A DNA stretch of 64,000 nucleotides from Naegleria gruberi (lineage: Eukaryota). The stretch lies in the NCBI GenBank assembly GCA_000004985.1, contig GG738869.1. One strand, written 5' to 3'. The position numbers and the translations under genes are program-made. Below the pieces are notes generated by a model. The model was not told where the DNA came from. It ran no database searches and worked only from the letters and a program-made list of their open reading frames with translations. The first letter of the stretch is position 1. Each line of letters opens with the position of its first letter. Shown here piece by piece: positions 7,918 through 36,780 of the stretch.

Positions 7918-7954
7918 TTTTTTTAAATTAAATTAAAATTATTTATTTTCACAA

Positions 7955-10900
7955 TTAATATCTAGGAGAGGTAAAATTAGCTGGTCTTGGTGAGTTGTTA
8001 TTACTGTAAGAAAGAGAATAATTGGATGGAGGGCGAAGAATGTTTTGGAATTTTGTAACTTCAATAGTTTGCAATTCCATTTGTTTCTTGGCATCCTTTC
8101 TTCTCTTCTTTCTACTAAGCAATCTTGATAGAATACAGAACAGTAAAGTTATAGAGATGATTGAAATTAAAATGACTGCTCCAATAATTGAACCTGCAAT
8201 AATGATATAGGTAATACTATAATCAATATTAGATGCCATTGGTACGCTTGTTGTTGGGTTAACACTTGTTGCAGGTGTTGGTGTTGTATCTTGACTACTA
8301 ACCACCAAATAAATACCAGTACTTTTAACAGAAATTACTATGGTATTTGAGTTTGATGAATTAATTGTGCAATTTGACGCCTTTGAGAATATACCTGAAG
8401 ATGTCTCTACTCTACATTCAAGAACTGTTCCTGTCTTAGCTGATCTAGCTCCGGATACTCTCTCCAAAGATAATTGAGCAATATTAGAACTTGAAATAAT
8501 GTTTTTTGATGTACTATCAACTAGAATCTTGAAATCTAATGCCTTAGTAGCAAGTAAGAGTGAGGTATTAGACATCTTGTATGAATTCATTGACAATGTA
8601 ACACTTTCAACTCCTTGTAATTCACTAAGTGAGCTGAATGTTGAACTGAGAGTAAATGGTTGAGCACTTGATTGTGTAACATTTTCTGATAATCCATTAA
8701 GTGTAATTGTACTGACCAGTCTGGCATATCTGTATGAATTAACACCTGTAACTCTAACAGCAGGCATATCAGCAACCAATGTCTTTAGTTTAATGTCTAC
8801 AAGATTGTTGTAAATTGTTTGAATAGTCTTCAAGTCAGAGGAAGAGAAAGAATTTAAAGATCTTGTAGAGACCTTGGCAGAAATATATGTCTTGAAAGTA
8901 TCTACAGATTTAATACTTGAATCAATATCACTGGACTTCATGATAATACTGTCCTTTTCATTAACTTTTGCCATTGATTCTGAGAACTTATTAATACCAT
9001 ACGAAACAGCAGTATCTTCCAAGTAGCTTAGTGAGTTACTAATTGAAGATACAACAGATATTGTTGAAGAAATAGAGGCTGGAGTGACTGATGTAAATGT
9101 TTCCTCTGATTCAATTTGAGTAAAGAATTTTTGAATAAAGGTGGTACCAGATTGTGTCAAAGCTTGCTTTTGTGATTCTGTTTGAGTTGTGGTAGTTTGA
9201 ATCAAAGATAACACTGATGAAACAGTTGAAACTGAAACTGTTCCTTGTTGAATTATTTTGAGAGACTCAATAGTGGAAGCCACATCTTGAGGTTTTGTAA
9301 CAGTTACCTCTGAAATGGATTCTGATGTTGCACCATAGTAATCAGAAACTAATGCCTTTACTTGCCAAATGCCAACAGGCATGTAGGTGGAAATGCTATT
9401 CTTTTCTGAAAGAGCAGATAAAACCATCCAGTCATCACTGCTACCCTTCTTCCTATACATAAACTTATAGCCTAGAGGTAAGTGTACATCAGTCCATCCA
9501 CTTGCACAATTAAGTTCAAAAAGATCTACCAATGTTACACCTGTTGAAGGAAGGATTGCAAAGGTTCCAGCAGTTGGAGGAGAATTTGTTGTAAATGTAA
9601 GAGAAGTTGATCCAGACTTGGAGCCATCTGTTATCTTCAAATTGACAGTGTAAGTTTTTCCTGCAGAAAGTAATGATTTGGAAATGACAAGGTACTTGTT
9701 GGAGGTGGATGGTAACACAAGATTTGAACTTGACCATTGATAAGTTCTGGAAGATGAAAGGGTATCCTTTGAAGAGGCTTCTAAGGTGAGATCACTAGTT
9801 GGATCAATGACAGAAGTAGAGACATCACTTGGAGTTACAATGACAACACGTAAAACAGTTGATTTGGCCACATTAAGTACCTTAACTTTTAGTGAAGCAG
9901 CCATAGTTCTTGTTCCCTTGCTGAATTTAGCAGTAAAGTAATAATTACCAGGTTGCATAGCACGATTAAATGTAATACTGGAAGCAAATTTGTAACTTGC
10001 AGAACTGAAACCATCACACGATCCAGAGGTGTCCACTTCATAACAAGTGAGAGCCAAAGAACCTGTAGTTCCAGTTGAATCACTTGGATCTTGTAAATAA
10101 ACAATAAAGTTAACATCATCTTCATATGATTGAGACATATCCCCAATATTGAAAGAGACCTTAAGAGGTGTTGCCTTAGCAGTCACTTTGAATGAAATAG
10201 ATACACCAGCAGCATAAAGAGTAAAATAATAGTCTCCTTCTTTTGTAAGTTTAGTGAAACTATCACTGAATACCAAAAATTGTCCATCTTGCTTAATTAC
10301 AACGTTATCAGCTGAAGTTGTAGTATTCAACTTATAGACATAGGTCACAGTTTGGGATGCATCGTAGCAAACAGGGAATGTAATATCTGGTGTGATAATA
10401 GCTGTACTTCCAATCATGAAACTAGTTTCAACACCTTCTTTAATTGTAAGTTGAGGTAAAGCCCTTTCCGTTACAGTTAAGGAAACAATAGCTGTTGAAT
10501 AGTTTCCAGAGAATGAGCTTGTTACCTTCACTTGTGCTTTGTAAGTACCCACAATTAATGTATCAGGTGAGAATGTAACACTAGATGTTATTGATTTGTT
10601 GATGAGATTATTTAAAGTTGAGCGTGAACTTTCGCTTGGGGCAGAAATTGCATACCAAGAATAAGTTAACTTTCTACCATCTGATGAAGTAGATGCAGAT
10701 GCATTAAATGTTACAGTTCCACATCCTATTCCAATAGAGCTCTTATCAGATTTTACACTAGCAACAGGTGGAACAATTATATAATCTTTTTGGGTAACAT
10801 TGACACTAACAATGCTTGCTGATCCTGGATATGTGCGAAGCAAGATTGTGTCTCCAATTACTATTGTTGGAGAAGATCCCAAGTTAATTTGAAGAGTACT

Positions 10901-13900
10901 CTTTGTGCCATTCAAAATACAAGTTGGGTTGCTTCCAAGCATAGAAATATCAATAATCACATTACCACAAGCAACTTGTTGATTGAAAGTTGAGAAAATT
11001 GTACCATAAATAATATGTCCCTTAGAATTAAATCCAAAGGAATTGGAGTCAATACCATAATTGCAATCATTTCCATACCATCCCTCCTCACAAGAGTTAC
11101 AGCTGTCACCGATTGTGTGAGGATTACAAGAGCAAGTTCCCTCATCATTACAAGTACCCCTATTACTACATGTTTTGCTTGCAAGACATTCTATATTACA
11201 GTCAGCACCAACAAATCCTTCCTTACAACGGTCACAATTGGATCCTGTCCAGTTACCGAAACATTCACACTCAGCCTCAATATTACAAGCACCGTGTGAG
11301 TTACATGTTACGTTATCATAACAAACACTGTGATTACAATGGGTACCAGCGAATTCTGGAAGACACCTTTCACAATATTGTTGAGGATCATAATTTCCTT
11401 TACATGTACATTCTTCAAAATTAACACATTTTCCTCTTCCACCACAAACACTTGGTCTTGAAGAATTAACATTATTGCAAGAAGTAAACTCGCAATTCAA
11501 ACCAGAATAACCATTAGTACAATTACATTCTGGCATTAAGCTCAAACCAACATCACAAGTACCACGAGAAGAACAAACAGCCTTATTAGTGGACAATAAC
11601 CCATTACAAATAGGAATATCACAATTTGAGCCATTGAAACCTGCTTTACATCTCGAGCATGAAACTCCTTCAAAGTTACCATCACAAACACAAACATGAC
11701 CAACACAAGATCCATGATGGGTGCAACCTCCCTCCTCTTCAGATTTACCATTACAAGTAATAACAGAACAATCCTCTCCTTTGAAACCACTATTACATCT
11801 ACAAGAATTAGCAGCTATACAAACTCCCTGTCCAGAGCATGACTCAGTTTGATTATAACTTCCAAAGCAAATGGGGAAGTCGCAATTATCTCCATAATAT
11901 CCATCGAAACAAGAACAATTATTCTCTGCAATACACAACCCATTAGATGAACAAACATGACGACTTGTGTCAGCATAACCATAACAGTGAGTAGCATTGA
12001 CATTATCTATTTCTGTCTCATTGAAACTTGTGGAATTTTTCAAATCTGTAGAGTTCACAACACTGGTAGCATTATCTGTTGTTGTAGTGTTTGTAAGTGT
12101 ACTGTTATCAGTGTTTGTATTATTCAAAGTGTCTGTACTATTCAAATTTTCTGTACTGTTTAAAGTGTCTGTAGAATTTTGGAAGATTTGAGTAGTATTA
12201 TCAGTAACTGTAGAATTTGAGAGAGTTGAATTGGTTGTTGACGTGTTTGAAGATTCTTGTGGAACAACTTCAAAAAGGCAATCTTCTGTTGGAAGAGTTT
12301 CCCAATATTCAGCCACAAAGGAAGAAAGTAAGGTAAATGGTTGAGAAGAACCTGTGATACCACTATTCAACACTTGAACACTCAGCATGATATTGCTTTC
12401 AGGATCTTGAACATTTTGAATTGATTGCACTGTTACTCTCTCTACATTATTCTTTGTATCAATAGAGGAGCCACCATTTCCGTATAATACACGTGAAGAT
12501 GAGTATTCTGAGGTTTCACTATTCAAATTGTATACATTTACAATCAAATCCAAGTTATTGATAATGTTTGGCAATACTGAAGTACTTGAAGAATAGTCAT
12601 ACCAAGTAAGGGTTGATCTGAATGTTGATGATTCAGTTACGTTCTTCTTCAATCTATAGCACGATCTTAATGTTTGGTTTGACTTGGTAAATGATTCTTG
12701 AGAAATAGATAGTGTTACATTTCTTCCTTTTTCATCACTAAAAAGACTTCCGAGTTGAATTTTTCCAAATCCTTCATAAAAGTTTGGTGTTCCAAAGGCT
12801 TCACTAATACTGAATCTTTGGAATTCATCGTCTGAATAAGCAACACTACCATTCAGAGGAACTGAGCTATGAATCATTGCAGCCTTAATTAAATGTCCAC
12901 TTGGAGCTGAAATTCCAAGCTTCTTGATAAAATATTCTCTCAATAATAGAGCACCTCCAGCCTTTTCCACACAAAGAGTATCATATTTATCAAATTTGCA
13001 TTAATTCAATATCATTTCAACAGCAAACAATATTGTAATTAACAATGTAATTAATAATAATAATAATAGATAATAATGATAATAACGTACGGATATCGGT
13101 GTTGCCATTGATGTGCCACTTTTTGTTATAAGGGCAGCATTGTTTGAAATGGATGGGGAACCAGCACCACATTGAGATGTTGAAATAGAACCGTCTGAGC
13201 GAGCTGAAACAATCTTGAATCCAGGTGCAACAACTATGGGACCAGTAATATTTATCCAAAATCAAACCCAAAAAAAACTTACAATCTGGTTTAATTCTTC
13301 CTCCAATAGCTGGACCTCTGGAAGAAAATGCAGCAAGGTTATTTTCATTATAAATATTTGTATATTGCAAATAAGAGCTAACATAACTATTTGCTGATGG
13401 TTCGTAGGTGGCACTGTCCACAAAACCAGCGTTTGAATTTCCATGAGCTCCAACAGAAATACCATTTTTACAAGTGGAAGGGGCTGTTAAATGTAAACAT
13501 TAAACTACTAGTTCAGTTGAATACTTACTACCAAGGTTTCCAAATCTGGATAATTGCCCATCATTTCCTTGGGCAATCAAAACTGTTGCATCTTGATGGC
13601 TCCAAATAAATTGATCAAACTTTTGGGCATAATCATCATAGGTATTACAAACATCACAACAAGTGTCAACTCCAAACAGGGTTTTACAATCATCGTTTGT
13701 AACAGAATCACCAGCACTAAAAGGAGCTTTATCTGCAGTTAGTGTGCATCCAGTACAGTCATAAGAGCAATCCACATATCCACCAATAGAACATCCCCAA
13801 CTGTTCGAAAATACTTTTGGTGTTGCGCTGCTTGTGTATGGAGTGCTTAATAGGTCAGTAATATCATTAGGGAAATATAATCCACTTCCATCTGCTGGTG

Positions 13901-15378
13901 CCAAGTCCGTAAAATATAATTTGGCACTTGGTGCAACACCATGAAAGGCATTTACGCCAGTTCCAAGGTTTGTGGCTTCCATAGAGCCGACAACACTACC
14001 AGCTGCATTGAAAACAAGTAAGAATGTTAATAATACAAATAAAACTTACCAACATGAGTTCCGTGTCCAGCAGTAACATCAGTAGCATCACCAGAATAAG
14101 CGGTTCTAATCCTAACTACCTTTCTTCTATTCAAATTAAGGGAGGTTGGAGCCCCTGAATGATTGTTATCAGTAAAAAAACAATGATCATAGTCAAGCCC
14201 AGTGTCAGCAACGGCTACAATCTGATCAGCTCCATAAATACCCATATTGTAAAATGGAGTTTCGTGAGGAAGAGATGGATGAGCAGATTGAACAATCTCG
14301 AGGGAATGTTTGTTAGAAATACTAAGGGACAACTTTCTTTGAACAAAGTGAATATTAGGATGAGAAGTGAGAATATATCCAACATAGGAAGCAATGAATG
14401 GTGAAAATGCAATTTCACACACATTTTCAGAAACAAGGATCATTGGCGCAAAATCAACATCTTTCACATACTTTTTAGAAAGTATTGTATTGATTTCATT
14501 CACCAATTTCTCAGTTTCTTGTTGTTGAGTTCCCAATGTGATAGATTGAACAGATGGAATGACTGAAATAACAAATCTAATCAGGTTTGATTGCTCGAAT
14601 GTTTGAGAAATTCTTGTCGAATTACTGACATTTCTCAACGATCTTTTTGGAGGGGTTCTTTTTCTTTCAAAAGCCAAAGACTGCAATTTTTGGAAATCAA
14701 AAGTTGATTTAAATCTAGATTCATACTCTCCAATCCACTCAATTTCATTATTATTGACAATTTCTGTAACATGACTTGCTGTAGTAACAACAGAGTAAAT
14801 GTTAGCAGACAAGACGTTATTTTCTCTTATGAACGTATTTTCAATAGATGATCCATCTTTGATTTTTACAATAAATTGATAATTTGGTTCCTCCAAAACA
14901 TCCCTTCCATCAATTCTTCTCTTCACTTTTCTAGAAAGATGTCTTAAACGTGAAGGGTTATTTAACAGATTTCTATCATTGGTTAGTTCATATCCATTCT
15001 TATCAATAGAAATACTTCTAAGATTATTTTGATTTTTCAAAGCTAGAAAGGCTACTGATGGAATAGTATCTTTTGAGTAAAGTTTTTCCCAATCTTGTTT
15101 GCTTACTGATTCAAGCTTACTGGAAATACTAAGAATGTGATGATTTTAATAAAATCGGAATAAAGAGATTAAAAATCAATACGCTCATATTCTACATACT
15201 CTTTGCAATATACTCCAATGTTGAAAAGAATAATTGCCATCAAACATAAACCAATCAATGATGTTCTTAAACACCATCTCCTCTTATAGAATGGTGCAAC
15301 ACCATCATTAACAACAACAACACTATGCATCATATTTTTCCAAGCCTTACACTTAAACTTCTCCAATACTACCCTCAC
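7955..15378 (-). CDS. Giant type-I membrane subtilisin-like serine protease with EGF-like repeats (~2,360 aa, 6 exons)
   Basis: Exons (minus strand): 15378-15200, 15128-14050, 14002-13529, 13483-13283, 13233-13091 and 12961-7955. Introns are 71, 47, 45, 49 and 129 nt with GTATGT, GTAAGT or GTACGT donors. There is an N-terminal signal anchor (LIGLCLMAIILFNIGVY). The subtilase catalytic motifs are spread across exons: VAVADTGLD (Asp), HGTHVAG spliced across a 47-nt intron (His), GVAPSAKL, AAFSSRGP and GTSMATPIS/AGGALLL spliced across a 129-nt intron (Ser). Downstream are S/T/N-rich tandem hexapeptide repeats, then at least 10 tenascin-like EGF repeats (CxCxxGYxGxxCD), then S/T-rich Ig/PKD-like regions, then one C-terminal TM helix (IIAGSIIGAVILISIISITLLFCIL) with a basic tail. 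Confidence 0.8.
12050..12260 (-). repeat. In-frame 18-nt coding minisatellite (NSTDTL-type hexapeptide repeats) inside the subtilase-EGF gene
   Basis: The plus strand shows reiterated units such as ttcaaagtgtctgtacta, ttcaaattttctgtactg and tttaaagtgtctgtagaa. They encode ...NSTDTLNSTENLNSTDTLNNTNTDNSTLTNTTTTDN.... Confidence 0.6.
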
Positions 15379-15909
15379 AAACGTTGTTGTTCTTTTGTAT
15401 TTTCTTTGTGATTAAAATATTATTTCATTTTTCCCCAGTGCTTCTACCTTACTACACTATTATTGACGCACACAAGCTTAGAAGCTGTCGAACACAACGT
15501 TCATAATACAGCTTCATTTGGGCACATAAAGAGTAAGTTTGCAGCAACGGTAGAAGGGCATGTTTGGTGAAACTTTACCCAAACATGTAAAGTTCAAACT
15601 TCTTAATACTGGCTATCATGAACAATGCACAAAGCTTCTATTTGCTAGAAAGAATACTCATCCTCTCTAGAACGCCAACCGGAAGCAATTATTCTTTGCA
15701 CTCTTTCAAATTGTATAAATGTTTATCATTCCCAAGCTTGGCTTGTCAGATGAAAGTTCCAAAGTTGTATCATTAGAAAACAAATTTTAAATAATATTTA
15801 AATGAATATTTAAATAATAATATTTTCATGATTTAAATTATTAATTTCATGTCAATCTCCTCACCTATGGTATGATGGATAATTTGTTTTAAAATTCATT
15901 TAAATAAAA

Positions 15910-34804: not shown

Positions 34805-36780
34805 ATTCAGTTTTTGGATAATTCTCCTCTTCAACAGCAATACTTTGATGGTATAACTTTCCAATAATTGAAGTTGATCTTATTTTACCTCCCATATAGT
34901 CAGGTCTCTCATTATATTCATGTATCCAATCTGGAAGCGCTACTAGTTGACCATTCTTACTTGATTCCATAACAACATCTGACAAGGCAGCCAATTCTTT
35001 TGCTCGAGGACTGTCTGCACCTTCCTGTTCACATACAACAACCCATGTATTGCAAATTATTCCAATCTTTCCGTGTAAATATTAAGGAATTATACTAAAC
35101 ACATTCACAACTTACATTACTACTCATTCTAAACTCAAAAACATTAGCACTAGTCCACCAATAGTTTTTCAAGAGATGATGGGAAAAGTTGGAAAGTGCA
35201 GTGTTGACACATTTCTTAAGATCAAATTGTTTAAGTGTATGGCCAAACTCATTAGCTTTACTCCACCAACTTTGAATATATTGTGCTTGTGGAATAATTT
35301 CAGTATTCCAAGAGGTAAAAAACCTATCACCATCTTTGAATTGCAAGTTAGAAATTGAAAATAAATGAAAGTTACCTAACTCACCTGGAATGTTGTGTTG
35401 CTGACAATCGGCAGCGAAAATAATAACACTTCCTTTTAAATCAACTTCATGTCCAAACCATTTCTGATAGTAATCTGGGATGGATACGGTTTCGAATATT
35501 CTTACATCTCGTGGATGAAGTCCAGGATTTCTGAAAACAATAACTTTTTTCCCACCTGGAACCATACGCCCATTCTTTGTAATGACAATAACTTGGTTAT
35601 CTTTCAATTGTTTAGTTTCGTCCAAAATTCCTTTAGCAATAACTGAATCTTTCATAAAAAACTTTGTTTTTTCCTTAGCATTCTTGATTCTTGCCCTAAA
35701 TTCTTCATCATTTCGACACTTATTTCTAGCAAGGGCTTTTTTTTGTGCATTAAGAAACACTTCATCCTTAACTTGCAATGAACTTAACAAAATAATTATT
35801 TGTCTATTAATATTTGCCGTGTCTGATTCATTCAATCCTTCAACAATTTCCAATTTGTTGAAAAGAGGATTCCCCTCAAATTTCTTCATGCTCTCTCTCA
35901 GAATGATTTGATTGCCATTCATGATCTTGTCTGGACATACTGTCAACATTCCCTTAAATCCAAGAAATCTAATCTGGAAAGCACGAGGAATGTGAACATA
36001 TTTTCCATCAATGCTTTGATCTCTCAAACTACAGCAAACTGCCTTGGCAAATGAGTAACTAATCATACCAATACCATCTGACACAATTCCTTTTCCATCT
36101 CTTGAATTAATGTCATCAATTACTATATATTTGTGAACACGAATTGTTTCTTTGGTGGAAGTGAAATTAAGACACTGTCTTGCAATTTTGGTTTCAATTT
36201 CAGAGGCATAGATCCCAAAGATGTCCATCATTTTCATTGGATCCTCTTCACATGTAAAGTAAACTCCCCTCTCTGAAAGTAAACTTGAAGAAGCACCAAT
36301 TGGCTTGAACATTTGTCCATATAAACAAAAGCCTTTCAGTGTTGTTTGCATTACTGTGGAATCTCTTTCATCTTCAAAGTCAACTCGGATGAATTTATCA
36401 ATTCCATAATATCTAAATACCTTGTTATAATCAATCTCGGCAAATTCAAATGATTTTAAATTGGTTGATTTCACTCTTCTTATCAATTCGGTTTGTTTTA
36501 CAGCGCTTTCATCAAATTTAAATAAAGTATGACACTTCTTCTCTGTAACCACATGTCTATAAAGTTGCTGTGAGAAGTGATACAAACATTGAGTCAGTTC
36601 TTCCTTTGCATTAACAAATTGTTCTGTCTGTTCCTTGAACCATTTACAAAATGGTGCATCTCTATGTTTTTGCAAGTAATGTAACAATAAGCTCCTTTGA
36701 TTATCGATTGTAATGCAACAATGATCGTTTAACCAACCCCATGCCTGTGACCACATTTTTTTGATATTCATTTGTTGCAT
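34752..36780 (-). CDS. RNA-dependent RNA polymerase (eukaryotic RDR/RdRP family), 2 exons
   Basis: Exons 36780-35116 and 35024-34752, with a 91-nt GTAAGT...CAG intron. It has the catalytic DxDGD-type motif (NLQFKDGDRFFTSWN) and the downstream RdRP signature LPDWIHEYNERPDYMGGKIRSTSIIGKLY. The last 53 nt of CDS overlap, antisense, the 3' end of the 7TM-RGS CDS. Confidence 0.7.

What the first reader, a model, noticed from the sequence alone, without database searches (positions are those of the whole stretch)
7955..15378. ~2,360-aa membrane-anchored subtilase fused to EGF-repeat and S/T-rich ectodomain
The N-terminal exons encode a signal anchor and a complete S8 subtilase. All catalytic D/H/S motifs are reconstituted only after splicing four 45-71-nt introns and one 129-nt intron. 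The 5-kb terminal exon continues into hexapeptide S/T/N repeats, at least 10 tenascin-like EGF modules, Ig/PKD-like S/T-rich spacers, and a single TM helix with a short basic cytoplasmic tail. It looks like a cell-surface protease-adhesin or receptor-protease of unusual size.
Basis: partly seen in the sequence, partly recalled or inferred. Interest (0 to 1): 0.6.

Follow-up and report, generated by a model that had tools for sequence, protein, structure and literature searches.

The report
Naegleria membrane subtilase on EGF-REJ-GAIN stalk
This is a real six-exon Naegleria gruberi gene for a 2,345-residue membrane protein that carries an intact subtilisin-type protease on a long stalk of EGF, polycystin-type REJ and GAIN domains; the public gene model is mis-spliced and hides the protease, every part belongs to a known family, and the function is untested.

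Summary
On the minus strand, 15333 to 7955, six exons joined by five GT..AG introns of 71, 47, 45, 49 and 129 nt give one 2,345-codon reading frame. The window is Naegleria gruberi and the gene is NAEGRDRAFT_49279. Its public 2,129-aa model is mis-spliced and loses the catalytic serine.

The spliced protein has these parts, in order:
- an N-terminal hydrophobic anchor and a pro-region;
- a complete KP-43-type S8 subtilase (D353, H400, N551, S671) with its C-terminal beta-barrel;
- an N-glycan-rich LNSTDT-repeat linker;
- seven EGF modules (50 Cys), not ten or more;
- a PKD-like and REJ region;
- one TM helix and a 57-aa basic tail.

N. lovaniensis and N. fowleri homologues share this order. 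The N. lovaniensis ORF runs uninterrupted across four of the five N. gruberi intron positions.

The EGF-REJ-GAIN-anchor cassette is a Naegleria multigene family. Among the relatives retrieved, only one lineage carries the protease. The canonical GPS cleavage motif (HL|T) is absent (KSTG).

Most likely it is a prodomain-activated protease tethered at the surface or in a lumen. I found no published description of this domain combination. Interest is moderate.

The parts
15200..15333 (-). Exon 1 (residues 1-45, phase 2): ATG at 15333, basic KRRW, then hydrophobic segment about residues 24-43 (15205-15264), a probable signal anchor
   Evidence: It aligns to the basic-plus-hydrophobic N-terminus of the N. 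lovaniensis homologue, and the N. fowleri homologue has the same kind of N-terminus. The public model uses another first exon (about 15507-15441) with the same acceptor, so this exon is the least certain part.
15129..15199 (-). Intron 1, 71 nt, GTATGT...TAG
   Evidence: GC 0.25
14050..15128 (-). Exon 2 (residues 45-405): pro-region (about 46-340) and the first part of the S8 domain, with D353 (14204-14206) and H400 (14063-14065)
   Evidence: The Nl homologue model shows a confident beta-alpha-beta-beta-alpha-beta module directly before the catalytic domain.
14003..14049 (-). Intron 2, 47 nt, GTAAGT...CAG; splits HGTHV|AGS
   Evidence: The junction restores the HGTHVAG motif, and the Nl ORF is uninterrupted here.
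13529..14002 (-). Exon 3 (residues 405-563): NSWG, an 8-Cys insert of about 50 aa (475-523), and the oxyanion N551 (13563-13565)
   Evidence: The public model skips residues 405-495.
13484..13528 (-). Intron 3, 45 nt, GTAAGT...CAG; contains an in-frame stop
13283..13483 (-). Exon 4 (residues 563-630): PSTCKNGISVGA ... FSSRGP ... KPD
   Evidence: The public model reads part of this exon in the wrong frame (KVQLLEEELNQ).
13234..13282 (-). Intron 4, 49 nt, GTAAGT...TAG
   Evidence: The only intron of the Nl homologue lies 7 codons upstream of this position.
13091..13233 (-). Exon 5 (residues 630-677): VAPG ... GTSMATP with catalytic S671 (13109-13111)
   Evidence: absent from the public model
12962..13090 (-). 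Intron 5, 129 nt, GTACGT...AAG; (TAA)11 inside; in-frame stops
   Evidence: The junction gives GTSMATPIS|AGGALLLREYF, which is colinear with Nl GTSMAAPAVAGSLALIREFF.
7955..12961 (-). Exon 6 (residues 678-2345 plus stop TAA 7957-7955)
12839..14230 (-). S8 catalytic domain, residues 345-718 (interrupted by introns 2-5)
   Evidence: Pfam PF00082 at 8.6e-37; KP-43 1wmd at E 1.3e-32
12278..12760 (-). KP-43-type C-terminal beta-barrel domain, about residues 745-905 (TLTWYDY...NNLDLIV...NNVERV)
11987..12277 (-). S/T/N-rich linker, residues 906-1002; 15 N-x-S/T sequons; LNSTDT repeat at 12110-12173
11063..11986 (-). Seven EGF modules, residues 1003-1310 (50 Cys)
   Evidence: Pfam EGF_TEN, EGF_Teneurin, EGF_2 and EGF_laminin; Cys spacing
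9248..11056 (-). PKD-like module(s) and REJ domain, residues 1313-1915 (the Pfam REJ hit is 1670-1915, at 9248-9985)
   Evidence: REJ 7.2e-37; PKD_4 weak, 0.011. The repeated short matches to residues about 1407-1515 are consistent with a PKD-like repeat unit.
8291..9283 (-). GAIN-fold domain, about residues 1904-2234: seven helices, then a beta-sandwich. One Cys pair (C2193, C2208). The turn K2223-S2224-T2225-G2226 (8315-8326) sits where canonical GAIN domains have HL|T.
8129..8215 (-). Transmembrane helix, residues 2260-2288
   Evidence: Hydropathy maximum 2.95; modelled as a helix
7958..8128 (-). Cytoplasmic tail, residues 2289-2345 (SRLLSRKKRRKDAKK...)

Best explanation
**What it is.** A single six-exon Naegleria gruberi gene (NAEGRDRAFT_49279) encodes a 2,345-aa membrane protein.

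**Shown**
- The gene structure.
- An intact KP-43-subfamily S8 protease with all catalytic residues.
- The domain order: pro-region, S8, beta-barrel, glycan linker, 7 EGF, PKD/REJ, GAIN fold, TM helix, tail.
- Conservation of this order in two other Naegleria species.

**Inferred mechanism**
1. The N-terminal hydrophobic segment inserts the protein into the ER. The whole 2,200-aa body then faces the lumen or the outside, and both ends are cytoplasmic.
2. As in other subtilases, the module next to the catalytic domain acts as folding chaperone and inhibitor, and is removed autocatalytically. This also detaches the N-terminal anchor.
3. The active protease is left at the tip of a stiff, heavily N-glycosylated stalk. 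It is held by the C-terminal TM helix at the cell surface, or in a topologically equivalent phagosomal or secretory lumen. There it cleaves proteins in trans or in cis.
4. The REJ-GAIN-TM cassette is shared with more than 15 non-protease Naegleria paralogues. It is a generic display pedestal on which this lineage mounted a protease.
5. The GAIN domain is most likely structural or uncleaved, because the canonical HL|T site and one of the two GPS disulfides are missing.
For: **Gene structure**
- Splice model with consensus sites.
- Catalytic residues fall at invariant alignment columns.
- A non-Naegleria S8 profile scores the spliced model 359.9 bits and the public model 159.2 bits.
- The Nl homologue is colinear, and its single-intron ORF crosses the positions of Ng introns 1, 2, 3 and 5.

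**Domains**
- Pfam S8, EGF and REJ hits.
- KP-43 is the best solved relative by sequence, E 1.3e-32, including the beta-barrel.
- A confident beta-alpha-beta-beta-alpha-beta module sits before the catalytic domain in the Nl model.

**Family and topology**
- Paralogue family without S8.
- Only two hydrophobic segments, and dense sequons in the linker.
- Nl and Nf have 40-65 hydrophilic residues before the first hydrophobic segment, which argues for an anchor rather than a cleaved signal peptide.
Against: - No transcript or protein data were available.
- Intron 1 and the start codon are supported only by weak homology, and the public model uses a different first exon.
The homologue stands in for it.
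- Pfam does not detect an I9 propeptide, a GPS motif or a GAIN domain by sequence.
- Localisation, substrates, activity and prodomain processing are all inferred.
- The near-invariant T-G at the GAIN turn (T in 15 of 17, G in 17 of 17) may mean the turn is functionally important, so cleavage cannot be excluded.
Confidence: 0.8

Rival explanations
1. The protease exons and the EGF/REJ/TM exon are two separate genes: a secreted subtilase and a downstream surface protein.
For: One N. fowleri annotation (FDP41) does split the homologue into a 761-aa and a 1,869-aa protein.
Against: - That split is an artefact. The 761-aa model ends by reading into an unspliced intron (RGPASG|K), and the 1,869-aa model starts at the Met inside GTSMATP.
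- In N. gruberi the S8 fold spans intron 5: S671 is in exon 5, while the following helix and the KP-43 beta-barrel are in exon 6.
- The Nl gene encodes everything from residue 726 to the TM helix in one exon.
- No in-frame ATG-initiated ORF begins near 12,970.
Confidence: 0.03
2. The public 2,129-aa model is correct. The S8-like sequence is a decayed remnant that is partly skipped, and the protein is a plain EGF-REJ surface protein like its paralogues.
For: It is the deposited model. Most paralogues have no protease.
Against: - The skipped segments are open, conserved at about 50% identity with Nl and Nf, and hold the oxyanion Asn and the catalytic Ser at invariant columns.
- The public model contains an out-of-frame exon with no homology (KVQLLEEELNQ).
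- The public model scores 159 bits against the S8 profile, against 360 bits for the spliced model.
Confidence: 0.03
3. Self-shedding protease. The GAIN domain autoproteolyses at the conserved S|T-G turn by a non-canonical route. The protease-bearing ectodomain is then held non-covalently and can be released, or a tethered peptide exposed, by force or ligand binding.
For: - GAIN fold directly before the TM helix.
- Thr at the P1' position in 15 of 17 family members and an invariant following Gly.
- BAI3 lacks the P2 His (it has Arg there), yet endogenous BAI proteins are cleaved in brain (PMC3321182). Nl has HRTG.
Against: - P1 is never Leu and P2 His is present in only one of 17 sequences.
- There is one Cys pair instead of two disulfides.
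- In latrophilin CL1, the H836S, L837A and T838G mutations each impair cleavage (PMC3321182).
- Pfam GPS is not detected.
- A single TM helix leaves no 7TM or 11TM body for a tethered agonist to act on.
Confidence: 0.15
4. Pseudoprotease or adhesin. The S8 domain is used as a binding module rather than as an enzyme.
Against: D353, H400, N551 and S671 are all intact and conserved in three species, as are the surrounding motifs DTG, HGTHVAG, NSWG, GN and GTSMATP.
Confidence: 0.07
5. Same protein, but it works in the lumen of phagosomes or food vacuoles, or in cyst-wall secretory vesicles, rather than at the plasma membrane. It would help digest bacterial prey or remodel the cyst wall.
For: The lumen is topologically the same as the outside. 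Naegleria is a bacterivore (general knowledge). KP-43-type enzymes are broad-specificity secreted proteases (PMC7471176 abstract).
Against: There is no recognisable endolysosomal sorting motif in the tail by my own reading of the tail sequence. A 1,300-aa rigid stalk makes more sense on a surface. Nothing here discriminates between the two locations.
Confidence: 0.2

Closest known systems
N. lovaniensis C9374_009380 (XP_044544731.1, 2,643 aa) and N. fowleri CAG4715060.1 (2,677 aa)
   Same: - Same order: N-terminal anchor, pro-region, KP-43-type S8 with the same 8-Cys insert, beta-barrel, N-glycan linker, EGF, REJ, GAIN-like domain, TM helix, basic tail.
- About 50% identity in the protease and 33% over the full length.
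   Different: - They carry a Frizzled-type Cys-rich insertion among fewer EGF modules, according to the UniRef name 'FZ domain-containing protein'.
- They have one intron instead of five.
- The 10-kb flanks are not syntenic with the window, so orthology is not established.
KP-43 / SubHal subfamily of S8A subtilases (PDB 1wmd, 5fax)
   Same: - Catalytic domain plus a contiguous C-terminal beta-barrel.
- Best sequence match, E 1.3e-32.
   Different: - KP-43 is a 43-kDa soluble bacterial enzyme.
- The Naegleria protein has an 8-Cys insert of about 50 aa after NSWG and a long pro-region.
- It is fused to a membrane stalk of about 1,400 aa.
Polycystin-1 / PKDREJ / sea-urchin suREJ proteins (REJ + GAIN/GPS + membrane anchor)
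   Same: A REJ domain (Pfam 7.2e-37) is followed by a GAIN-fold domain immediately before the first TM helix. From memory, not tested here: suREJ1 also combines EGF modules, REJ, GPS and a single TM helix.
   Different: - No PLAT domain and no 11-TM channel-like body.
- No HL|T site and only one GPS-region Cys pair.
- A protease at the N-terminus instead of LRR, lectin or PKD arrays.
Adhesion-GPCR GAIN domains (BAI3 4dlo, BAI2 8oek, CELSR1 8vy2, CD97 9mqr)
   Same: Helical subdomain A plus beta-sandwich subdomain B, placed directly before the membrane.
   Different: - 7-11% sequence identity, and Pfam GPS and GAIN models are silent.
- No 7TM domain.
- The turn motif is x-S-T-G.
Membrane-tethered eukaryotic subtilases: site-1 protease (MBTPS1), furin/PC7, Plasmodium SUB2
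   Different: They belong to other S8 subfamilies. There is no P-domain here, and none of them has a REJ or GAIN stalk (my knowledge).
Diplonemid (Rhynchopus humris-like) S8-EGF-TM protein P0051/P0221 (1,365 aa)
   Same: S8 plus teneurin-type EGF modules plus a C-terminal TM helix, in another discobid lineage.
   Different: No REJ or GAIN domain, much shorter, and 24-28% identity.

Membership tests
Peptidase S8 (subtilases) | Asp-His-Ser triad in that order within DTG / HGTHVAG / GTSMA motifs, plus the oxyanion Asn | tested here: met
   D353, H400, N551 and S671 fall at invariant columns of a 17-sequence alignment.
Peptidase S8 (subtilases) | Pfam PF00082 score above the gathering score | tested here: met
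   127.4 bits against a cutoff of 21.8, E 8.6e-37. The public model has no PF00082 hit on record.
KP-43 subfamily of S8A | C-terminal beta-barrel domain contiguous with the catalytic domain | tested here: met
Kexin/furin proprotein convertases (S8B) | P-domain (PF01483) after the catalytic domain | tested here: not met
   No PF01483 hit at E<=0.1. The downstream domain is KP-43-like.
REJ domain proteins | Pfam PF02010 above the gathering score | tested here: met
   127.5 bits against a cutoff of 25, covering profile positions 160-421 of 452.
GAIN domain | Fold: alpha-helical subdomain A plus twisted beta-sandwich subdomain B directly before the first TM helix | tested here: met
GAIN domain | GPS cleavage motif H-L|T/S/C at the kinked turn between the last two strands | tested here: not met
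   The turn is K-S-T-G. Thr is conserved in 15 of 17 sequences, Leu never occurs, and His occurs only in Nl. Pfam GPS is silent.
GAIN domain | Two conserved disulfides holding the GPS turn | tested here: not met
   Only C2193 and C2208 are present and invariant.
GAIN domain | Autoproteolysis | not testable with these tools
   Needs immunoblots of tagged protein and a T2225 mutant.
Polycystin-1 family | REJ-GAIN followed by a PLAT domain and an 11-TM body | tested here: not met
   One TM helix after the GAIN domain, a 57-aa tail and no PLAT hit.
Adhesion GPCRs | 7TM domain after the GAIN domain | tested here: not met
   Single hydrophobic segment, 2260-2288.
EGF (tenascin/teneurin/laminin type) | 6- or 8-Cys modules with CxCxxGxxGxxC; Pfam hits | tested here: met
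   50 Cys in 7 modules. EGF_TEN 1.1e-19, EGF_Teneurin 3.7e-16, EGF_2 8.7e-12.
Naegleria EGF-REJ-GAIN-anchor paralogue family | Full-length colinear match over residues 1400-2255 | tested here: met
   Eighteen relatives at E<1e-30. Those whose records were looked up are N. gruberi, N. lovaniensis or N. fowleri proteins. S8 is absent from the ten that were Pfam-scanned, and only three lineage members have it.
Subtilase zymogens with an I9-type propeptide | Propeptide recognisable as Inhibitor_I9 and removed autocatalytically | tested here: inconclusive
   There is no PF05922 hit. The Nl model does have a confident beta-alpha-beta-beta-alpha-beta module (segment 211-292, pLDDT 81-92) abutting the catalytic domain. 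Processing cannot be tested here.

The most novel reading that the evidence does not exclude
The REJ-GAIN-TM cassette is an ancient eukaryotic 'display and release' module, and in Naegleria it has been coupled to an enzyme. The conserved S-T-G turn would support a non-canonical, His-independent GAIN autoproteolysis. An active subtilase would then be held non-covalently at the surface and shed, or unmasked, by mechanical pull or ligand binding. As far as I could find, that would be the first protease-GAIN mechanosensory or shedding device, and evidence that GAIN self-cleavage predates and is independent of 7TM and 11TM receptors.
Probability: 0.12. Interest if true: 0.65.

Novelty: new variant of a known kind. 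Interest (0 to 1): 0.4.

Why it matters
**Practical.**
- The public record for NAEGRDRAFT_49279 is wrong. It hides an apparently active protease.
- One N. fowleri annotation splits the homologue in two. N. fowleri is the brain-eating pathogen, and a large surface-exposed protease would be a candidate virulence or antigen molecule there.

**Conceptual.**
- Naegleria (Discoba) has a sizeable family with a bona fide GAIN fold behind a REJ domain. GAIN domains were earlier reported in Tetrahymena and Dictyostelium (PMC3321182), so this extends the polycystin-type REJ-GAIN cassette to another deep eukaryotic branch.
- The cassette is used here with a single TM helix or a GPI-like anchor, and in one lineage with an enzyme at the tip.
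- That gives a simple system for asking what a GAIN domain does when no receptor body is attached.

All component families are known and no function has been shown, so the finding is useful but not startling.

Tried and rejected
**Searches and look-ups that gave nothing**
1. Two homologous-protein searches with the C-terminal half returned nothing, not even the identical public protein. This looks like a word-index limitation. The exhaustive representative search replaced them.
2. GPS and GAIN were not detected by sequence: Pfam at E<=10 on the post-REJ segment of Ng and Nl, phmmer against PDB and a family profile against PDB (only chance Ig light-chain matches). The fold had to be tested by structure.
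3. No synteny was found between the N. lovaniensis locus and the window, so orthology is left open.
4. Literature searches (Naegleria with subtilisin, REJ domain, GAIN domain or polycystin) found no paper on this protein family.

**Steps blocked by the tools**
The N. lovaniensis homologue was modelled instead.
6. Exact look-ups for transcript-derived contigs failed.
7. The afdb50 fold library was unavailable.

**Ideas rejected**
8. Kexin-type P-domain: rejected.
9. I asked whether the public first exon could splice into exon 1 to make a seven-exon gene. From my own reading of the sequence, the only phase-compatible acceptor creates a TAG, so this was rejected.
10. I asked whether the ORF 37 nt downstream (7917-7117) is a further exon. 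This was rejected because the tail length matches the homologues and a clean TAA precedes an AT-rich spacer.

Full report
**Organism and locus.** The window is AT-rich (about 33% GC) and eukaryotic. The terminal 1,671-codon ORF on the minus strand (7955-12970) is 100% identical to 'predicted protein [Naegleria gruberi]'. That record is XP_002677046.1 / EFC44302.1 / NAEGRDRAFT_49279, 2,129 aa. The neighbouring genes are ordinary and unrelated: COQ5-type methyltransferase, F-box, Sec1/Vps33-like, [20 protein letters not shown], a kinesin with an FHA domain, RGS and RdRP.

**Checking the observation.** I read the minus strand from 15,700 to 12,800, translated it in three frames and assembled a model.
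- Exons: 15333-15200, 15128-14050, 14002-13529, 13483-13283, 13233-13091 and 12961-7955.
All begin GTA[A/T/C]GT and end AG. They are 20-31% GC.
- Each intron either shifts the frame or carries an in-frame stop.
- The product is 2,345 aa from the first ATG (15333).
- At this base composition a stop-free run of 1,671 codons has a probability near 1e-56.

**Domain content.** Pfam finds Peptidase_S8 at 345-718 (8.6e-37), several EGF families at 1012-1310 and REJ at 1670-1915 (7.2e-37).
- The catalytic residues are D353 (DTGLD), H400 (HGTHVAG), N551 (GNDG) and S671 (GTSMATP). All fall on invariant columns of an alignment with 16 other subtilases.
- They are spread over exons 2, 3 and 5, and the rest of the domain lies in exon 6.

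**Is the splice model right?** No transcript data could be reached. Three independent lines support the model.
1. The N. lovaniensis homologue P0002 (2,643 aa) is colinear with the model from the N-terminal hydrophobic segment to the C-terminal tail. It is about 50% identical in the protease, and no gap falls at any N. gruberi junction.
2. The N. lovaniensis gene has only one intron, 7 codons upstream of N. gruberi intron 4. One uninterrupted frame therefore crosses the positions of N. gruberi introns 1, 2, 3 and 5, and continues from the protease to the TM helix.
3. A profile built only from 14 non-Naegleria subtilases scores the spliced model 359.9 bits over profile positions 2-487 of 498. 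The intron-free N. lovaniensis protein scores 334.2 bits. The public N. gruberi model scores 159.2 bits in four fragments.

The public model skips residues 405-495. It replaces residues 563-677, including the catalytic Ser, with an out-of-frame peptide (KVQLLEEELNQ). It also uses another first exon.

The weakest element of my model is exon 1. It rests on the similar layout (basic residues followed by a 19-25-residue hydrophobic stretch) in the N. lovaniensis and N. fowleri proteins.

**The 'two genes' alternative.**
- The S8 fold itself spans the 129-nt intron.
- One N. fowleri annotation does split the homologue. However, its 761-aa product ends by reading into an unspliced intron, and its 1,869-aa product starts at the Met inside GTSMATP. 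Another N. fowleri record (CAG4715060.1, 2,677 aa) joins the two.

**The protease.**
- By sequence, the closest solved structures are KP-43 (1wmd, E 1.3e-32) and SubHal (5fax). The alignment continues through KP-43's C-terminal beta-barrel (TLxWxD...NDLDL...NNVE).
Overall pLDDT is 68, with blocks in the catalytic and barrel cores mostly 80-97.
- There is no kexin P-domain.
- Two features are specific to Naegleria. One is an 8-Cys insert of about 50 residues right after NSWG (475-523), conserved in all three species and poorly modelled. The other is a long pro-region.
- In the model, the part of the pro-region next to the catalytic domain is a confident beta-alpha-beta-beta-alpha-beta unit, the propeptide topology of subtilases. 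Pfam I9 is not detected.

**The stalk.**
- Residues 906-1002 are 61% S/T/N with 15 N-x-S/T sequons. They include a 3.6-copy LNSTDT repeat.
- Residues 1003-1310 contain 50 Cys arranged as seven EGF modules, three with 6 Cys and four with 8 Cys.
- Then come a PKD-like module and the REJ domain.

**The juxtamembrane domain.** Sequence methods gave nothing for residues 1916-2255.
- An exhaustive HMMER scan of 1.84 billion representatives with residues 1400-2255 found 18 relatives below 1e-30 that align end to end.
- Those whose records I looked up are N. gruberi, N. lovaniensis or N. fowleri proteins. All have EGF and REJ, and the ten I Pfam-scanned have no S8.
- Only the window gene, P0002 and the N. 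fowleri protein show protease homology.
- A 16-sequence alignment of the post-REJ region gave a confident AlphaFold model (pLDDT 84.8, pTM 0.71). It has seven helices, a beta-sandwich, a disordered linker and the TM helix.
- Foldseek's only six hits below 1e-3 are GAIN domains too, led by BAI3 at 5.6e-10 over 301 columns.

The fold criterion for GAIN, as defined by Arac et al. 2012 (PMC3321182), is therefore met. The cleavage criteria are not.
- The kinked turn between the last two strands reads K2223-S-T-G instead of H-L|T.
- Across 17 family members the Thr is kept in 15 and the Gly in all. Leu never occurs at P1, and His occurs at P2 only in N. lovaniensis.
- Only one Cys pair (C2193, C2208) is present instead of two disulfides.

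**Mechanism.** What is shown is an intact KP-43-type catalytic apparatus, an ectodomain-type composition (disulfide-rich EGF modules, dense sequons), two hydrophobic segments only and a REJ-GAIN-TM pedestal shared with many paralogues.

What is inferred runs as follows.
1. Signal-anchor insertion places the 2,200-residue body outside the cytosol.
2. Autocatalytic prodomain removal activates the enzyme and severs the N-terminal anchor.
3. The mature protease stays tethered by the C-terminal helix, at the cell surface or in a phagosomal or secretory lumen.

I consider the GAIN domain most likely an uncleaved structural pedestal. The conserved T-G turn keeps a non-canonical self-cleavage (shedding) model alive at about 0.15.

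**Comparison and novelty.**
- The protein works like the membrane-tethered subtilases (S1P, furin/PC7, SUB2), but it belongs to the KP-43 subfamily.
- Its C-terminal half resembles polycystin-1 and suREJ proteins (REJ plus GAIN before the membrane). It is not a member of that family, because it has no PLAT domain, no 11-TM body and no HL|T site.
- Another discobid, a diplonemid, has an S8-EGF-TM protein without REJ or GAIN.
- Four literature searches found no paper on REJ or GAIN proteins, or on this subtilase, in Naegleria.
- The gene and its homologues are deposited as uncharacterised predictions, and all the domains are known families.

I therefore rate this a new variant of a known kind, of moderate interest. 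Its immediate value is a corrected gene model and the recognition of a GAIN-fold family in Heterolobosea.

Noticed in passing
window 7918-7954 and ORF 7917-7117 (-): Only 37 AT-rich nucleotides, including (TTTAA)3, separate the giant gene's TAA from the ATG of the next same-strand ORF. That ORF is 266 aa, rich in Cys and charged residues, and has no Pfam hit. This leaves almost no room for a 3' UTR plus a promoter.
   Followed up: partly
window about 15441-15507 (-): The public model's alternative first exon (MKLYYERCVRQLLSLCASIIVY) splices in the same phase to the same acceptor (15128) as the anchor-encoding exon 15333-15200. Alternative first exons, or an annotation error, are both possible.
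   Followed up: partly
N. fowleri proteins P0076, P0214, P0213 (not in the window): The FDP41 annotation of the pathogen N. fowleri splits the homologue into 761-aa and 1,869-aa proteins at an unspliced intron. CAG4715060.1 has it whole at 2,677 aa.
   Followed up: yes
Naegleria paralogues P0065-P0085, P0219, P0220: - At least 15 EGF-REJ-GAIN-fold paralogues exist in Naegleria.
- Many end right after a short C-terminal hydrophobic stretch that looks like a GPI signal, instead of a TM helix plus tail.
- Two are named 'basal body protein (NBP family)' in N. gruberi records.
- P0065 (2,628 aa) has about 1,300 N-terminal residues with no Pfam hit.
   Followed up: partly
window 13529-14002 (-), residues 475-523: An 8-Cys insert of about 50 residues immediately after the NSWG substrate-cleft segment is conserved in the three Naegleria proteins and absent from KP-43. 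It is modelled with low confidence and may shape specificity.
   Followed up: partly
L001 12177-12303 (N. lovaniensis): The single intron of the N. lovaniensis homologue lies 7 codons upstream of N. gruberi intron 4. This could be intron sliding or independent gain. The other four N. gruberi introns have no counterpart there.
   Followed up: partly
window 35095-36780 (-): An ORF with a strong RNA-dependent RNA polymerase (RdRP, PF05183) match at 1.5e-60. It is presumably the cellular RNAi-type enzyme.
   Followed up: no
tool behaviour: The word-indexed protein search returned no hit at all for the C-terminal 900-1,000 residues, although an identical public protein is in the database. The exhaustive search then found it.
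   Followed up: yes
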